A stretch of DNA of 64,000 nt from Candidatus Omnitrophota bacterium (GCA_016867115.1 VGKG01000002.1:70449-134448), one strand, 5' to 3'. Numbered from the stretch's first letter, positions 3,907 through 16,097 are shown. The notes: generated from the sequence alone by a model not told the origin. A program made the numbers and translations.

Positions 3907-3983
3907 GGCGGCGTAGCTCAGTCTGATAGAGCAGTCGGCTCATACCCGATAGGTCACTGGTTTAAATCCAGTCGCCGCCACCA
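3907..3983 (+). tRNA. tRNA-Met (anticodon CAT) with encoded CCA.
   Basis: Cloverleaf: acceptor GGCGGCG/CGCCGCC, D-arm GCTC...GAGC, anticodon loop CTCATAC, T-arm ACTGG-TTTAAAT-CCAGT, discriminator A, CCA. Confidence 0.8.
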
Positions 3984-4020
3984 ACATAATTACTGCGGGA
4001 AAATCCAGTCGCCGCCACCA
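3964..4020 (+). repeat. 20-nt direct repeat AAATCCAGTCGCCGCCACCA. Copy 1 is the 3' end of tRNA-Met; copy 2 lies 17 nt downstream.
   Basis: Exact 20/20 identity read from the sequence at 3964-3983 and 4001-4020. Confidence 0.85.
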
Positions 4021-11376: not shown

Positions 11377-12048
11377 ATGAACAGGAGAAAATTGGATCTG
11401 AATAGAATAAAACATCTTTATTGGGGGCGAAAGCTTAGTGTGGAAGAGACCGCCAAGAAACTAGGCATCTCCGCATGGTCTTTATATGGCTTAATGCAAA
11501 AGAATAATATTCCCCGCCGTCTGCATTCTGAGGCCGGTTATTTGGCAAATAAGAATAAGCCGGCATTTGAGATCAGGATGGATCTTGATTACGTAGACGA
11601 AAGATTAAAAATCGCCGGATGCATGCTTTATTGGGCCGAAGGTTCGTTTAGTACTAATTTTGTCGATTTTACGAATAGCAATCCCGAGATGATAAAATTG
11701 TTTTTGTGTTTTTTAAGGGAAATCTGCGGTGTAAAAGAAGAGAGGTTAAGGGTTTATTTATATGCTTATAGCGCAGAGAATCTCGAGGCAATTAAACGAT
11801 ATTGGCAAAAGATTACGGGGATACCGGGTAGGCAATTTACAAAACCTTATATAAGAAGGCCTGTTCAGAATCTTACTAAAAGAAAATTACCGCAAGGTTT
11901 AGTGCATATTCGTTATAACGATAAGCGCCTGTTGGAAATTTTGAAAATTTGGATTGAAGAATACGTTCAATGGGCAGGTACCCAAGTGGCCAAAGGGGGC
12001 AGACTGTCAAAGGGCAGCGTTCTATCGAAAGGTAGAATGGAAAAGTAG
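11377..12048 (+). CDS. Putative homing endonuclease with an N-terminal helix-turn-helix and a degenerate single LAGLIDADG-like motif (IAGCMLYWAEGSF).
   Basis: Start is placed at MNRRKLDL, because the track start at 11275 lies inside tRNA-Thr. The HTH segment is LSVEETAKKLGISAWSLYGLMQKNNIP. The motif xAGxxxxxAEGSF is followed by a hydrophobic core typical of LAGLIDADG enzymes. The last ~25 codons read through tRNA-Tyr exon 1 and the start of the intron. Confidence 0.4.
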   Translation: MNRRKLDLNRIKHLYWGRKLSVEETAKKLGISAWSLYGLMQKNNIPRRLHSEAGYLANKNKPAFEIRMDLDYVDERLKIAGCMLYWAEGSFSTNFVDFTNSNPEMIKLFLCFLREICGVKEERLRVYLYAYSAENLEAIKRYWQKITGIPGRQFTKPYIRRPVQNLTKRKLPQGLVHIRYNDKRLLEILKIWIEEYVQWAGTQVAKGGRLSKGSVLSKGRMEK

Positions 12049-12250
12049 GTGAATTCAGGGAAGCCCCGGCGCTGCCGGGGTAATCCTGAGCGAAGTTCCG
12101 AGCAAAACGAGGAAAACGTGCAGAGACTAAGCGCCTACCGCCTAAAGCTAAAAGCCAAGGCGATGAGATAGTCCAAGCCTTAAGGTAACTTAAGGGCACT
12201 TGAAATCTGCTGCACTTGTGCTTCAGAGGTTCGAATCCTCTCCTGCCCAT
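11972..12250 (+). tRNA. tRNA-Tyr (anticodon GTA) split by a group I intron between anticodon-loop positions 35 and 36. Exon 1 is about 11972-12007 and exon 2 about 12203-12250.
   Basis: Exon 1 GGGCAGGTACCCAAGTGGCCAAAGGGGGCAGACTGT aligns closely with bacterial tRNA-Tyr: D-arm CCCGAGCGGCCAAAGGG and anticodon stem GCAGA. Exon 2 AAATCTGC completes the loop CTGT|AAA and the stem TCTGC, followed by a long variable arm, T-loop GGTTCGAATCC and acceptor CCTGCCC complementary to GGGCAGG. The T-stem/acceptor junction runs through a (CCT)3 tract and is 1-2 nt off canonical. Confidence 0.55.
12008..12202 (+). ncRNA. Group I self-splicing intron (~195 nt) within tRNA-Tyr.
   Basis: Exon 1 ends in U and the intron ends in G (CACTTG|AAAT). 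An internal guide-like GCAG lies right after the 5' splice site. The R-like element GTGCAGAGACTAAGCGCC is at 12118-12135 and the S-like element GAGATAGTCC at 12165-12174. GACTA/TAGTC can form P7. The size resembles small tRNA introns such as Azoarcus tRNA-Ile (~205 nt). Confidence 0.55.
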
Positions 12251-12610
12251 TTTGAAAATCCCGACAAGGGATTTTCAAAATGCACAAAGTGAGCGTTAAA
12301 AGCCCCGACAAGGGGCTTAGCGAACGGCGTGCGTACATCAAATATAATCCCGACAAGGGATTTTCAAAATGCACAAAGTGAGCGTTAAAAGCCCCGACAA
12401 GGGGCTTAGCGAACGGCGTGCGTACATCAAATATAATCCCGACAAGGGATTTTCAAAATGCACAGAGTGAGCGTTAAACGGCCCGACAAGGGGCTTAGCG
12501 AACGGCGTGCGTACATCAAATATAATCCCGACAAGGGATTTTCAAAATGCACAAAGTGAGCGTTAAAAGCCCCGACAAGGGGCTTAGCGAACGGCGTGCG
12601 TACATCAAAT
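12251..12610 (+). repeat. Tandem array of four 88-89-bp units. Each unit holds two hairpins with a CCC-GACAA-GGG core (stems up to 13 bp in copy 1) and a TATAAT box.
   Basis: Unit AATCCCGACAAGGGATTTTCAAAATGCACAAAGTGAGCGTTAAAAGCCCCGACAAGGGGCTTAGCGAACGGCGTGCGTACATCAAATAT repeats at 12258, 12347, 12436 and 12524. Copy 3 has small variants. The array ends at the RBS of the gene at 12622. Confidence 0.9.
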
Positions 12611-12621
12611 AGGAGGTTCCT

Positions 12622-13527
12622 ATGTCAAAAAAGAAGGTCATTATCTGGGTCATCGTAGCAATAGTTTTAGTTGTCCTGGGATTGTCTATCCTGGTCGCCG
12701 CTTTTGCGCCGAGCTTAAGGATGGGGTCTGCCGCAAGATATAAAGCTGACGCGGATTATTATGGCGAACAGTATTCACTTGCTCCCGAGTCTGCTGTCGG
12801 AGGGGCGCAGTACATGGCGCCGGCAAAGGCGATGGCCAAGCAGGCTCAGGCAGCGCCCTCGGTAAGAAAGCTTATCCGCAGGGCAGAATTGGATCTTGAA
12901 GTAAAATACTGCGATGAGACAGCAAAGAAGATAACTGATCTGGTCAACAGTTATTCCGGGATCATTATTGATGCCCAGATCCAGAAAGCGCCCAATGAAG
13001 CAAAGAGGGGCCAGACTATCCTGAAGGTCCTGCCCAAGGATTTTGATACGGTGCTGTTGAAATTAAAGGAGTTGGGAAAGGTGAACTCAGAGAGGGTCAC
13101 CGCAGAAGACGTCACCGAAGAATACGTAGACCTGGAGGCAAGGCTCAAGAATGCCAAGGCGGTTAAAGACAGGCTTATGGCGATCCTGCAGGATAAGGCG
13201 CGCACGGTCAAGGACATCCTGGAAGTCGAGCGGGAATTATACCGGGTAGGCGAGGAAATAGAGCGGATCGAGGGCAGGATGAAGTTCCTTGACCGCCAGG
13301 TGGATCTGGCTACCATTACCGTTAACTACTACGAACCGAAGGCTATAGCGCCGGAACCTTTGAATGTTTTTGAGCGGTTCAAGAAGACCGTCCGCCTCTC
13401 TATTGAGGTTTTTATCAACGTTTTCAATGCCGCGATCGTAGTCATTTTTGCCCTTATCCCGGTCTTCTTGTGGCTGGGCATCATCGTGGCGGTCGTGGTG
13501 TTGGTCAGGAAGTTCTTCAGAAAATAG
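12622..13527 (+). CDS. Membrane-anchored coiled-coil protein with N- and C-terminal TM helices, possibly DUF4349-like.
   Basis: N-terminal TM (IWVIVAIVLVVLGLSILVAAF), a central coiled coil (EDVTEEYVDLEARLKNAKAVKDRL...) and a C-terminal TM. The DUF assignment is from memory only. Confidence 0.35.
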   Translation: MSKKKVIIWVIVAIVLVVLGLSILVAAFAPSLRMGSAARYKADADYYGEQYSLAPESAVGGAQYMAPAKAMAKQAQAAPSVRKLIRRAELDLEVKYCDETAKKITDLVNSYSGIIIDAQIQKAPNEAKRGQTILKVLPKDFDTVLLKLKELGKVNSERVTAEDVTEEYVDLEARLKNAKAVKDRLMAILQDKARTVKDILEVERELYRVGEEIERIEGRMKFLDRQVDLATITVNYYEPKAIAPEPLNVFERFKKTVRLSIEVFINVFNAAIVVIFALIPVFLWLGIIVAVVVLVRKFFRK

Positions 13528-13609: not shown

Positions 13610-13738
13610 TAAATGAGCAGACACTTTACGGAGCGAGAAAAAGGAGCGAACGTAAAGTGTAGCCAAGTCGATTATTCACTGTTGGCGTCTGCGAATTTAC
13701 ATCGCCATAGCTTACTAGAGGCGATGGACTAAGTAATT

Positions 13739-15895: not shown

Positions 15896-15970
15896 CGGGG
15901 CGTGGCTCAGTTTGGCTAGAGCGCTTGAATGGGGTTCAAGAGGTCGACAGTTCAAGTCTGTCCGCCCCGA
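15896..15970 (+). tRNA. tRNA-Pro (anticodon GGG), CCA not encoded.
   Basis: Acceptor CGGGGCG/CGCCCCG, D-arm GCTC-AGTTTGGCTA-GAGC, anticodon stem-loop CTTGA-ATGGGGT-TCAAG, T-arm GACAG-TTCAAGT-CTGTC. Confidence 0.75.
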
Positions 15971-15997
15971 TAAAATATAAAAAGAGGTCGACAGTTT

Positions 15998-16056
15998 CCC
16001 GCCAAGCGATTAAAATGAGGGCGGGATCCCGCCCAAGATTCAATTGGCTTGGCGGG
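15998..16056 (+). repeat. Nested inverted repeats. The outer arms are CCCGCCAAGC / GCTTGGCGGG and the inner hairpin is GGGCGGG-ATC-CCGCCC. Located between tRNA-Pro and the first of a PilZ gene pair.
   Basis: Read directly: outer arms at 15998-16007 and 16047-16056, inner palindrome at 16019-16034. Confidence 0.6.
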
Positions 16057-16097
16057 ACAAGTCCCACCTCCCCGACCACTTCTAAAAGAGGCGCAAT

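What the first reader, a model, noticed from the sequence alone, without database searches (positions are those of the whole stretch)
12251..12610. Four-copy 89-bp tandem array; each unit carries two CCCGACAAGGG hairpins and a TATAAT box
Four nearly identical 88-89-bp units fill the whole spacer between the intron-containing tRNA-Tyr and the next gene. Each unit has two stem-loops with the same GACAA pentaloop closed by CCC/GGG. The first copy has a perfect 13-bp stem, TTTTGAAAATCCC/GGGATTTTCAAAA. Each unit also has a TATAAT hexamer. The period is not a multiple of 3 and all frames contain stops, so it is non-coding. It is not CRISPR-like: the units are contiguous and there are no spacers. Candidates are a multi-copy sRNA or attenuator array, repeated operator sites for a dimeric regulator, or a minisatellite generated by the adjacent mobile intron and endonuclease.
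Basis: seen in the sequence. Interest (0 to 1): 0.55.

Follow-up and report, generated by a model that had tools for sequence, protein, structure and literature searches.

The report
Amplified tRNA-trailer RNA hairpin element
The 89-bp array is real: it is a local multiplication of a conserved two-hairpin RNA element, absent from Rfam release 15, that Omnitrophota-type bacteria encode directly behind certain tRNA and tmRNA genes, and whose function is still unknown.

Summary
The array exists as described: 12257-12611, period 89, 4.0 copies, 97% identical. It is not a local oddity. Its unit belongs to a family found here in more than 100 metagenomic and genomic loci, including three MAGs or genomes named Omnitrophota.

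The unit has two hairpins:
- H1 is an AT-rich hairpin capped by a GACAA-type pentaloop. Its stem includes the last nucleotides of the upstream tRNA.
- H2 is a sequence-conserved hairpin with a GCGAGC/GCGAGC tandem-G·A segment and a GACAA loop.

Family properties:
- The element starts at the 3' end of a same-strand tRNA (58) or tmRNA (5) in 63 of 79 loci with enough upstream sequence.
- It also lies inside rRNA operons, between tRNA-Ala and 23S, so it is not an efficient terminator.
- The structure has strong covariation support: 93.5% of cells paired and 222 double-change cells.
- No Rfam 15 family matches.

About 27% of the 94 arrays counted have 2-4 units. At the orthologous tRNA-Tyr locus the number ranges from 1 to 4. 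Another assembly of the same population shows only 2 units, so the copy number here is uncertain.

The TATAAT box, the operator-site idea and the intron-driven origin are not supported. The most likely role is a co-transcribed 3'-trailer or processing module; this is inferred, not shown. The closest analogue is the E. coli tyrT RtT repeats.

The parts
11972..12007 (+). tRNA-Tyr(GUA) exon 1
   Evidence: Sequence identity to the intron-less tRNA-Tyr of L012/L019. ARAGORN -i finds the split gene but miscalls the anticodon.
12008..12202 (+). Group I intron in the anticodon loop of tRNA-Tyr
   Evidence: Rfam RF00028, 93.4 bits, 11997-12195. Boundaries were inferred from the exon alignment, with U before the 5' splice site and G at the intron end.
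12203..12249 (+). tRNA-Tyr exon 2, with no CCA encoded. Its last two nucleotides (C, A) form the base of hairpin H1.
12248..12282 (+). Unit 1, hairpin H1. Perfect 15-bp stem, GACAA pentaloop (12263-12267). The 5' arm begins inside the tRNA.
   Evidence: the repeat finder I4, fold, CM R1 hit 12244-12335 at 89.9 bits.
12282..12332 (+). Unit 1, hairpin H2. Outer stem GCAC/GUGC, a G(U)GAGC / GCGA(A)C segment with tandem G·A, a GUUAA/A loop, an inner stem and a GACAA loop.
12337..12424 (+). Unit 2. H1 truncated to 6 bp (12346-12362). H2 at 12371-12421.
   Evidence: CM R1 63.5 bits.
12426..12513 (+). Unit 3. H1 at 12435-12451 and H2 at 12460-12510. It carries 3 substitutions (12465, 12479, 12481) that weaken the inner stem. 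These are absent from the JGI contig L042.
   Evidence: CM R1 53.2 bits.
12515..12602 (+). Unit 4. H1 at 12524-12540 and H2 at 12549-12599. Its tail runs into the ribosome-binding site.
   Evidence: CM R1 63.5 bits.
12611..13527 (+). RBS (12611-16) and DUF4349 membrane-protein gene (12622-13527). It is a neighbour, not a conserved partner of the element.
   Evidence: Pfam PF14257 E=4e-57. In L019 and L056 the homologue lies upstream of tRNA-Thr instead.

Best explanation
The array is a local tandem amplification of a conserved ~90-nt structured RNA element. This assembly shows four copies and another assembly shows two. Omnitrophota-type bacteria encode the element immediately 3' of particular tRNA genes (Tyr, Ala, Ser, Cys, Val, Leu, Pro, Asp) and of tmRNA.

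The element is transcribed as part of the stable-RNA precursor.
- H1 is tailor-made for each gene. Its 3' arm pairs with the trailer and with the last 3-10 nucleotides of that tRNA, including CCA where CCA is encoded.
- H2 is nearly constant in sequence. It has two G-C pairs, tandem G·A/A·G, two more G-C pairs, an asymmetric GUUAA/A loop and a GACAA pentaloop. GACAA is also the loop of phage P22 boxB, where it adopts a GNRA-like fold.

Inferred mechanism. The trailer holds the 3' end of the precursor in a duplex. It presents H2 as a recognition module for a protein or nuclease that releases or protects the 3' end. The trailer is then left as a stable by-product RNA.

Extra units arise by unequal recombination or slippage. 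They carry a truncated H1, differ in number between species and assemblies, and are probably by-products that add H2 modules.

Status of each step:
- Shown: family membership, position, orientation, structure with covariation, read-through context, and copy-number variation.
- Inferred: the processing or protection role, the protein partner, and the origin by slippage.
For: Family and position
The double-hairpin scan found the element in three Omnitrophota MAGs or genomes (L001, L012, L019) and three stretches from two Planctomycetes-labelled MAGs (L010, L015, L031).
- In 63 of 79 arrays with at least 100 nt of upstream sequence, the element overlaps the 3' end of a same-strand tRNA (58) or tmRNA (5). 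About half of the other 16 are intron-containing t(m)RNAs or sit behind duplicated pseudo-3' ends. The rest follow an inserted or unidentified sequence.
- The H1 stem includes 3-10 tRNA nucleotides in 62 of 63 cases.

Structure
- On a MAFFT alignment of 44 first units, 31 pairs are 93.5% paired, against 33-45% when slid. There are 222 double-change cells against 70±6 in shuffles, and 23 pairs show compensatory change.
- The H2 register is fixed by covariation at 53-89 (GC to AU) and 54-88 (CG to UA).
- The H1 loop, which was not part of the search pattern, is GACAA in 34 of 44 and G-R-Y-A-A in 41 of 44.
- The H2 loop stays GACAA in most copies that escaped the pattern, although their stems changed.

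Not a terminator
- The element lies between tRNA-Ala and 23S in five 16S-Ile-Ala-[element]-23S-5S operons.
- It lies 0-25 nt before the next tRNA in at least 9 loci.

Inheritance
- It is vertically inherited at one locus. Synteny NnrD-like / tRNA-Thr / tRNA-Tyr / element / tRNA-Gly / ThyA-like holds in 15 loci, with 1, 2 or 4 units.
- Units are 97-100% identical within an array and 68-83% between arrays.

This window
- CM R1 scores the four window units at 90, 63.5, 53 and 63.5 bits, and hits nothing else in 64 kb.

Outside reference
- The P22 boxB loop is GACAA with the C looped out (PMC12550061).
Against: - No expression or end-mapping data exist. The processing role is inference only.
- The canonical element is not universal. 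On the same contigs it is absent after tRNA-Gly (0/18), Thr (1/15), Arg (0/7) and Ile (0/6), so it cannot be a general requirement for tRNA maturation. Other trailers carry different GA-motif hairpins.
- G·U pairs (25) and A·C/C·A cells (23) are about equal at paired columns, so wobble pairs do not identify the folding strand.
- The sequence constancy of H2 is partly ascertainment, because the search pattern fixed 21 bases.
- Later units of many arrays are degenerate or carry deletions. This fits neutral duplication better than selection for multiple copies.
Confidence: 0.55

Rival explanations
1. The trailer is a trans-acting small RNA or a protein sponge. After excision by RNase P and the 3'-processing enzymes, the ~90-nt RNA persists and titrates or guides a protein through its GACAA loops and GA motif. 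Tandem copies raise its dose.
For: - The loops and the GCGAGC segment are invariant although the stems vary.
- About a quarter of arrays are multi-copy.
- There is precedent in E. coli, where RtT elements trail tyrT and tyrV, three of them in tandem, and rttR is annotated as a small RNA.
Against: - H1 is tailored to the neighbouring tRNA end, which points to a cis role.
- Later units often decay.
- No target or partner is known.
Confidence: 0.2
2. The element is a neutral or selfish structural repeat. Hairpin-rich trailers of highly transcribed genes are duplicated by slippage or unequal crossing-over and have no function of their own. The four copies are a minisatellite.
For: - Copy number varies from 1 to 4 at one orthologous locus, and between assemblies of one population.
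- Within-array identity is 97-100%.
- Some copies are degenerate or internally deleted.
- Duplicated tRNA 3' ends lie nearby.
Against: - Duplication explains the multiplicity but not the unit. Compensatory changes in 23 pairs, fixed position and orientation, and conservation across tRNA identities and genera indicate selection on the structure.
- The element occurs nowhere else in the 64-kb window.
Confidence: 0.15
3. The element is a new small self-cleaving ribozyme that cuts at the tRNA 3' end, as HDV-like theta ribozymes do next to phage tRNAs. Tandem copies would release unit-length RNAs.
For: - The element sits exactly at tRNA 3' ends.
- It has invariant unpaired nucleotides and two identical GNRA-like loops that could make tertiary contacts.
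- There is precedent for ribozymes at tRNA 3' ends (PMC10879173).
Against: - No match to any Rfam ribozyme family at E<=10.
- The covariation supports two simple hairpins without a pseudoknot or junction.
- The expected cleavage site lies inside a perfect duplex.
Confidence: 0.05
4. The array is a set of promoters or operators, or a type III antitoxin-like repeat, serving the downstream DUF4349 gene.
For: - The array ends 10 nt before the start codon.
- TATAAT occurs at three junctions.
- ToxI-type antitoxins are tandem repeats upstream of their toxin gene (own knowledge).
Against: - The element follows tRNA-Tyr in 14 related loci in which DUF4349 is elsewhere or absent.
- TATAAT is not conserved in other arrays. 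There is no -35 match and the promoter scan does not flag it.
- The downstream protein is DUF4349, not a ToxN-like nuclease.
Confidence: 0.03
5. The array is an assembly artefact.
For: - Short-read contigs break in the array.
- One contig shows 2 copies instead of 4.
- The unit-3 variants are missing in another contig.
Against: - At least two units with both flanks are present in independent assemblies from two samples.
- Equivalent 2-4-unit arrays occur in many unrelated contigs.
- Only the exact copy number is in doubt.
Confidence: 0.02

Closest known systems
E. coli tyrT/tyrV RtT elements (Rfam RF00391; rttR small RNA, tpr)
   Same: - It is a structured element encoded directly behind tRNA-Tyr genes and co-transcribed with them.
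- It is present once between tyrT and tyrV and three times in tandem after tyrV.
- The tandem array is 178 bp x 3.1 and overlaps the last 19 nt of the tRNA.
- Its function is still unclear (bioRxiv 10.1101/2024.07.17.603846).
   Different: - There is no sequence or structure homology. RF00391 does not hit the window, and model R1 scores below 9 bits on the E. coli locus.
- The unit is 89 bp, not 178 bp.
- The Omnitrophota element follows many tRNA species and tmRNA, not only tRNA-Tyr.
- It has no small ORF.
Phage P22/lambda boxB hairpins of nut sites
   Same: - It is a short G-C-closed hairpin with the same GACAA pentaloop, which in P22 boxB folds like a GNRA tetraloop with the C looped out and is read by an arginine-rich peptide (PMC12550061).
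- In rRNA operons the element lies just upstream of a boxA-like GTTCTTTAAAA sequence.
   Different: - No N-like protein is known here.
- There is no boxA next to the element outside rRNA operons.
- The element has a second conserved module, the GA motif.
- None was found in viral contigs.
HDV-like theta ribozymes next to phage tRNAs
   Same: Both are small structured RNAs placed exactly at the 3' end of tRNA genes. For theta ribozymes a role in 3'-end maturation has been proposed (PMC10879173).
   Different: - There is no HDV-like double pseudoknot and no Rfam ribozyme match.
- The context is chromosomal, not viral.
RNase III processing stems of rRNA operons and phage T7 early transcripts
   Same: Both are long, nearly perfect duplexes flanking a stable RNA inside a polycistronic precursor. 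Both include hairpins with internal loops that stay on the product. This comparison rests on own knowledge.
   Different: Cleavage has not been shown. H1 is only 13-17 bp.
REP/BIME, BOX and other extragenic palindromic repeats
   Same: Both are hairpin-forming intergenic repeats with a variable number of tandem modules.
   Different: - Those families are dispersed through intergenic regions in both orientations.
- This element is tied to the 3' end of t(m)RNA genes in the sense orientation.
- It is unique to one locus in the 64-kb window.

Membership tests
t(m)RNA-trailer two-hairpin element (family defined here; model R1) | Starts at or overlaps the 3' end of a same-strand tRNA or tmRNA gene | tested here: met
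   The window H1 begins at 12248, 2 nt inside tRNA-Tyr. In the family this holds for 63 of 79 arrays.
t(m)RNA-trailer two-hairpin element (family defined here; model R1) | H1: AT-rich stem pairing with the tRNA terminal nucleotides, capped by a G-R-Y-A-A pentaloop | tested here: met
   Unit 1 has a 15-bp stem and a GACAA loop. In the family this holds for 62/63 and 41/44. Units 2-4 keep only 6 bp.
t(m)RNA-trailer two-hairpin element (family defined here; model R1) | H2: outer stem, GCGAGC/GCGAGC tandem-GA segment, GUUAA/A loop, inner stem, GACAA loop | tested here: met
   All four units have it. The window carries the compensated U-A variant of pair 54-88 (GUGAGC / GCGAAC).
t(m)RNA-trailer two-hairpin element (family defined here; model R1) | Significant covariance-model score | tested here: met
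   89.9, 63.5, 53.2 and 63.5 bits, with E from 5e-22 to 4e-12. Unit 1 was part of the seed alignment; units 2-4 were not.
RtT RNA (RF00391) | Match to the Rfam covariance model | tested here: not met
   No hit at gathering score or at E<=10. As a positive control, the model hits E. coli four times at 133-137 bits.
CRISPR array | Direct repeats separated by unique spacers of similar length | tested here: not met
   The units are contiguous and 97-100% identical over all 89 bp. The only CRISPR-DR match is noise (16 bits, E=7.7).
Intrinsic (Rho-independent) terminator | G+C-rich hairpin followed by a U-tract; ends a transcription unit | tested here: not met
   No + strand terminator-like site lies in the array. 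Family members lie inside rRNA operons before 23S and 0-25 nt before the next tRNA.
Type III toxin-antitoxin (ToxI-like repeats) | Tandem RNA repeats conserved together with a downstream ToxN/AbiQ-type endoribonuclease gene | tested here: not met
   The downstream gene is DUF4349. Its linkage to the array is not conserved.
Known self-cleaving ribozymes (HDV-like/theta, hammerhead, twister, pistol, hatchet) | Match to family model; self-scission | tested here: not met
   No Rfam match at E<=10 on the window or on a canonical member. Self-scission is not testable with these tools.
boxB/nut antitermination site | GNRA-like pentaloop hairpin next to boxA, bound by an N-type protein | tested here: inconclusive
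   The loop is identical to P22 boxB. A boxA-like sequence follows only in rRNA operons. The protein partner is not testable.
REP/BIME-type or MITE-type dispersed repeat | Many copies in unrelated intergenic regions, both orientations; TIR/TSD for MITEs | tested here: not met
   The single locus in the 64-kb window is the only one. Orientation and position are fixed relative to t(m)RNA genes. A whole-genome census was not possible.
Kink-turn | C-stem, 3-nt bulge, then tandem G·A/A·G opening the NC-stem | tested here: not met
   The tandem G·A is flanked on both sides by covarying or invariant Watson-Crick pairs. There is no 3-nt bulge next to it (pairs 53-89, 54-88, 57-85, 58-84).

The most novel reading that the evidence does not exclude
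The two-hairpin trailer is the RNA half of a lineage-specific system for making or guarding the 3' ends of tRNA, tmRNA and perhaps rRNA. H1 sequesters the CCA end. H2 (tandem-GA helix plus P22-boxB-like GACAA loop) recruits a dedicated protein or nuclease, or acts catalytically. Multi-copy arrays such as this one would tune the amount of a released regulatory RNA.
Probability: 0.2. Interest if true: 0.8.

Novelty: new variant of a known kind. Interest (0 to 1): 0.62.

Why it matters
Omnitrophota are an almost uncultured phylum of very small, partly predatory bacteria, and their RNA biology is essentially unknown. This finding gives a well-supported new structured RNA family.

- It rests on more than 100 instances, strong covariation and a calibrated covariance model.
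- The family is tied to the 3' ends of tRNA, tmRNA and rRNA-operon tRNAs, and it pairs with the CCA end itself.
- It makes testable the question of how these organisms release and protect stable-RNA 3' ends.
- It offers an independent parallel to the still unexplained RtT repeats behind E. coli tRNA-Tyr.

Practical consequences:
- The element breaks short-read assemblies at tRNA loci.
- It is not covered by any Rfam 15 family, so it should be annotated.
- Its copy number is a variable marker between closely related populations.

Tried and rejected
- Rfam at gathering score and at E<=10, on the window and on a canonical member: only hairpin noise.
- Viral contigs scanned for the H2 core: nothing.
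- Literature searches for the element, Omnitrophota ncRNAs and Velamenicoccus transcriptomes: nothing relevant.
- Strand assignment from G·U versus A·C counts: inconclusive, 25 versus 23.
- Kink-turn reading of H2: rejected by the covarying flanking pairs.
- boxA reading of GAGCGUUAAAC: rejected by inspection, because it lacks the UCUUU core of boxA (own knowledge). A genuine boxA-like GTTCTTTAAAA lies further downstream in rRNA operons.
- SRP-helix-8-like and archaeal bulge-helix-bulge readings: the order and strand of the loops do not fit (reasoning only).
- Adjacent ORF 11377-12048 as a LAGLIDADG endonuclease: no Pfam hit at E<=0.01, only weak HTH hits, and no PDB relative. Its conserved position next to intron-containing tRNA genes keeps the idea open.
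- RNAalifold's register for the H2 middle helix (option A): replaced by option B after seeing covariation at 53-89 and 54-88.
- About 35 of the 41 genome-contig hits to the double-hairpin pattern were unrelated, mostly short tandem or coding repeats in other phyla.

Full report
**1. The observation**

Tandem Repeats Finder reports one strong array in the window: 12257-12611, period 89, 4.0 copies, 97% matches, no indels.

- Units 1 and 2 are identical. Unit 4 differs only where it meets the ribosome-binding site. Unit 3 has three substitutions.
- The 11-mer CCCGACAAGGG occurs eight times in 64 kb, all in the array. About 1.5 are expected by chance, and no shuffle reaches 8.
- Upstream is a tRNA-Tyr(GUA) gene: exons 11972-12007 and 12203-12249, split by a group I intron (RF00028, 93 bits).
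- Downstream, 10 nt after the array, is a DUF4349 gene.

The first hairpin of copy 1 is a perfect 15-bp stem, 12248-12282, that starts two nucleotides inside the tRNA. In copies 2-4 its 5' arm is truncated to 6 bp, although the full 3' arm is kept. TATAAT occurs at three junctions, not four. The description is therefore confirmed, with these corrections.

**2. The unit is a member of a large family**

A scan of one genome per species for two CCCGACAAGGG hairpins 28-40 nt apart gave 41 stretches. About 35 were unrelated, mostly short tandem or coding repeats. Six were clear homologues:

- Ca. Velamenicoccus archaeovorus (L001)
- two Omnitrophota MAGs (L012, L019)
- three stretches from two MAGs labelled Planctomycetes (L010, L015, L031)

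In each case the homologue lies right behind a tRNA gene.

ARAGORN placed that core 37-45 nt after the 3' end of a same-strand tRNA in about 50 of them. The tRNAs include Ala, Cys, Ser, Tyr, Val, Pro, Asp and Leu.

Profile and covariance-model searches over all loci gave about 104 arrays.

- Of 79 arrays with at least 100 nt of upstream sequence, 58 overlap a tRNA 3' end and 5 overlap a tmRNA 3' end (tmRNA confirmed by Rfam).
- About half of the remaining 16 follow intron-containing tRNA or tmRNA genes, or sit behind a duplicated pseudo-3' end. The rest follow an inserted or unidentified sequence.
- No copy was found in viral contigs.
- The window contains only the four units.

**3. Anatomy and structure**

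The consensus is: tRNA 3' end, then H1, then H2 (GGCACUNAAGCGAGCGUUAAACGGCCCGACAAGGGCCGUAGCGAGCGN'AGUGCC).

H1 is AT-rich, 13-17 bp, and capped by G-R-Y-A-A.

- The loop is GACAA in 34 of 44 and G-R-Y-A-A in 41 of 44. It was not part of the search pattern.
- In 62 of 63 cases the H1 stem contains 3-10 nucleotides of the tRNA itself, including CCA where it is encoded. The 3' arm is therefore tailored to each tRNA.

The structure was counted on a MAFFT alignment of 44 first units that was not fitted to any structure.

| Measure | Observed | Control |
|---|---|---|
| Cells paired (31 pairs) | 93.5% | 33-45% when partners are slid |
| Double-change cells | 222 | 70±6 in shuffles |
| Pairs with compensatory change | 23 | 16.5±1.6 in shuffles |

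The middle of H2 is best read as 5'-GCGAGC-3' pairing with the 5'-GCGAGC-3' of the other strand. That gives two G-C pairs, tandem G·A/A·G, then two more G-C pairs.

- This register is fixed by covariation at 53-89 (GC to AU) and at 54-88 (CG to UA). The window itself carries the U-A variant.
- In copies that escaped the search pattern the inner stem changes freely, yet the loop remains GACAA in most.
- GACAA is the pentaloop of phage P22 boxB. There it folds like a GNRA tetraloop with the C looped out and is read by the N peptide (PMC12550061).
- No Rfam 15 family matches the window units or a canonical member.
- Wobble-pair counts do not identify the strand: G·U 25, A·C 23. The fixed sense orientation and the position at the transcript's 3' end do.

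**4. What it is not**

*Not an efficient terminator.*
- In five rRNA operons it lies between tRNA-Ala(UGC) and 23S rRNA, in the order 16S-Ile-Ala-element-23S-5S.
- In at least nine loci the next tRNA starts 0-25 nt after it.
- No U-tract follows it.

*Not a regulator of DUF4349.*
- The locus NnrD-like / tRNA-Thr / tRNA-Tyr / element / tRNA-Gly / ThyA-like is syntenic in 15 loci.
- DUF4349 is elsewhere or absent in the other 14.

*Not produced by the intron.*
- L051 and L154 have four units behind intron-less tRNA-Tyr genes.
- Six of the eight syntenic intron-containing loci have one unit (L061 and L096 have two).

*Other rejected readings.*
- The ORF between tRNA-Thr and tRNA-Tyr has no recognisable endonuclease domain.
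- TATAAT is not conserved at the junctions of other arrays.
- It is not a universal processing signal. On the same contigs tRNA-Gly (0/18), Thr (1/15), Arg (0/7) and Ile (0/6) lack the canonical element, whereas Ala (15/15) and Tyr (11/11) have it. This count is biased towards the 'have' classes.
- Other trailers carry different hairpins that share the C-GA-G motif, including the window's own tRNA-Gly trailer at 13621-13660.

**5. The tandem state**

Of the arrays with a good first unit, 69 have one unit, 18 have two, 4 have three and 3 have four.

- At the tRNA-Tyr locus the number is 4 in the window, L051 and L154. It is 2 in L061 and L096, and 1 in ten others.
- Units are 97-100% identical within an array but 68-83% between arrays. 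Arrays therefore expand, or are homogenised, independently.
- Internal units always have a truncated H1 5' arm and a full 3' arm. A simple tandem duplication whose left breakpoint lies in that arm would produce this.
- Later units are often degenerate or deleted between the two GCGAGCG direct repeats.
- In some arrays a variant H2 with a second tandem-GA module alternates with the standard one, giving a dimer of about 180 bp.

For this population the copy number is uncertain.

- JGI contig Ga0194111_10021705 spans tRNA-Tyr to DUF4349 with exactly 2.0 identical units.
- Two contigs of sample 3300020222 end and start inside the array.
- One of them lacks the unit-3 substitutions.
- Collapse in short-read assemblies and true variation cannot be told apart here.

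**6. Mechanism**

Shown:
- The element is transcribed in sense as part of stable-RNA precursors. This is unavoidable in the rRNA operons.
- It folds into two hairpins under selection.
- H1 involves the 3' terminal nucleotides of the tRNA.
- H2 keeps specific unpaired and non-canonical nucleotides.

Inferred:
- The trailer keeps the precursor's 3' end in a duplex. It offers H2 as a recognition module for a protein or nuclease that releases or protects that end. A double-strand-specific cut in H1 would be analogous to rRNA processing stems.
- Excision by RNase P at the next tRNA and by the 3' enzymes leaves a stable ~90-nt RNA.
- The extra copies in the window are most simply duplication by-products. 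Alternatively they may serve as dosage of a released RNA.

My estimates:

| Claim | Estimate |
|---|---|
| Identity (amplified member of this family) | ~0.9 |
| RNA-level structure | ~0.8 |
| Processing or protection role | ~0.35 |

Rivals are a trans-acting sRNA or sponge, a neutral repeat, a new ribozyme, and a promoter/operator array.

**7. Comparison with known systems**

The closest analogue is the E. coli tyrT-tyrV locus.

- Rfam RtT (RF00391) matches once between the two tRNA-Tyr genes and three times in tandem after tyrV.
- TRF gives 178 bp x 3.1, overlapping the last 19 nt of the tRNA. rttR is annotated as a small RNA.
- It is an analogue, not a homologue. RF00391 does not hit the window, and model R1 scores below 9 bits on E. 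coli.

Other partial parallels:
- P22 boxB, which has the same loop.
- Theta ribozymes at phage tRNA 3' ends (PMC10879173).
- RNase III processing stems.

**8. Verdict**

The finding is real and more interesting than a local minisatellite. It exposes a conserved structured RNA family, absent from Rfam release 15, that trails tRNA and tmRNA genes in Omnitrophota-type bacteria. Here the element is amplified 2-4 fold. Its function is unknown. The class it belongs to, structured tRNA-operon trailer or spacer RNAs, is known, so I rate it a new variant of a known kind.

Noticed in passing
window 3964-3983 and 4001-4020: The last 20 nt of tRNA-Met (AAATCCAGTCGCCGCCACCA) recur as a direct repeat 17 nt downstream of the gene, just before the next ORF's RBS. 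It looks like an att-type scar of an integrated or excised element.
   Followed up: partly
window 15938-15952 / 15982-15996 and 16054-16078: Behind tRNA-Pro(GGG), 15 nt of its T-arm region are duplicated. Further on there is a GGGACAAGUCCC hairpin followed by a pseudo tRNA-Pro 3' end (CACCTCCCCGACCA).
   Followed up: partly
window 13621-13660: The tRNA-Gly trailer is a 10-bp stem enclosing GAGCGA...GAGCGA. It is related to H2 but lacks the inner hairpin. A similar 'TAAATGAG...' trailer follows tRNA-Thr in L133, so there may be a wider superfamily of GA-motif trailers.
   Followed up: partly
window 11377-12048: A 223-aa ORF lies between tRNA-Thr and tRNA-Tyr and overlaps tRNA-Tyr exon 1 and the first 41 nt of the group I intron. 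Homologues sit at the same place in L056 and L162 (59-61% identity), with a weaker one in L119. It has no Pfam or PDB relative, only a weak N-terminal HTH.
   Followed up: partly
window 11972-12249: ARAGORN with intron search calls the split tRNA-Tyr(GUA) as tRNA-Phe(GAA), because it places the intron boundaries 2 nt off. Comparison with intron-less orthologues, and the U / terminal-G rule for group I introns, give Tyr.
   Followed up: yes
L084, L103, L164; L119:5800-6430: Group I-type introns also interrupt tmRNA genes and another tRNA gene in related organisms. The trailer element still follows the 3' exon.
   Followed up: partly
L134:6590-8135; L102, L105: An insertion of about 1.5 kb sits exactly between tRNA-Ser(GGA) and its trailer element. 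Its 3' end (…GGGTTCGC…CACGACTA) is conserved between loci. It may be a mobile intron or an IS that targets this junction.
   Followed up: no
L015:3412-3540 (minus strand): tRNA-Asp is followed by 104 nt, then a 17-nt copy of its own 3' end, and then the element array. This is another duplicated tRNA end. The array in this MAG contains a run of Ns.
   Followed up: no
L091/L149 (tRNA-Asp trailer): Here the H1 loop is inverted (UUGUC instead of GACAA), so it is complementary to the GACAA loop of the neighbouring H2.
   Followed up: no
L094:544-648: A weak copy of the element (27 bits, with an insertion in H2) lies about 100 nt after the 16S rRNA 3' end and before tRNA-Ile. The family may also trail rRNA.
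   Followed up: no
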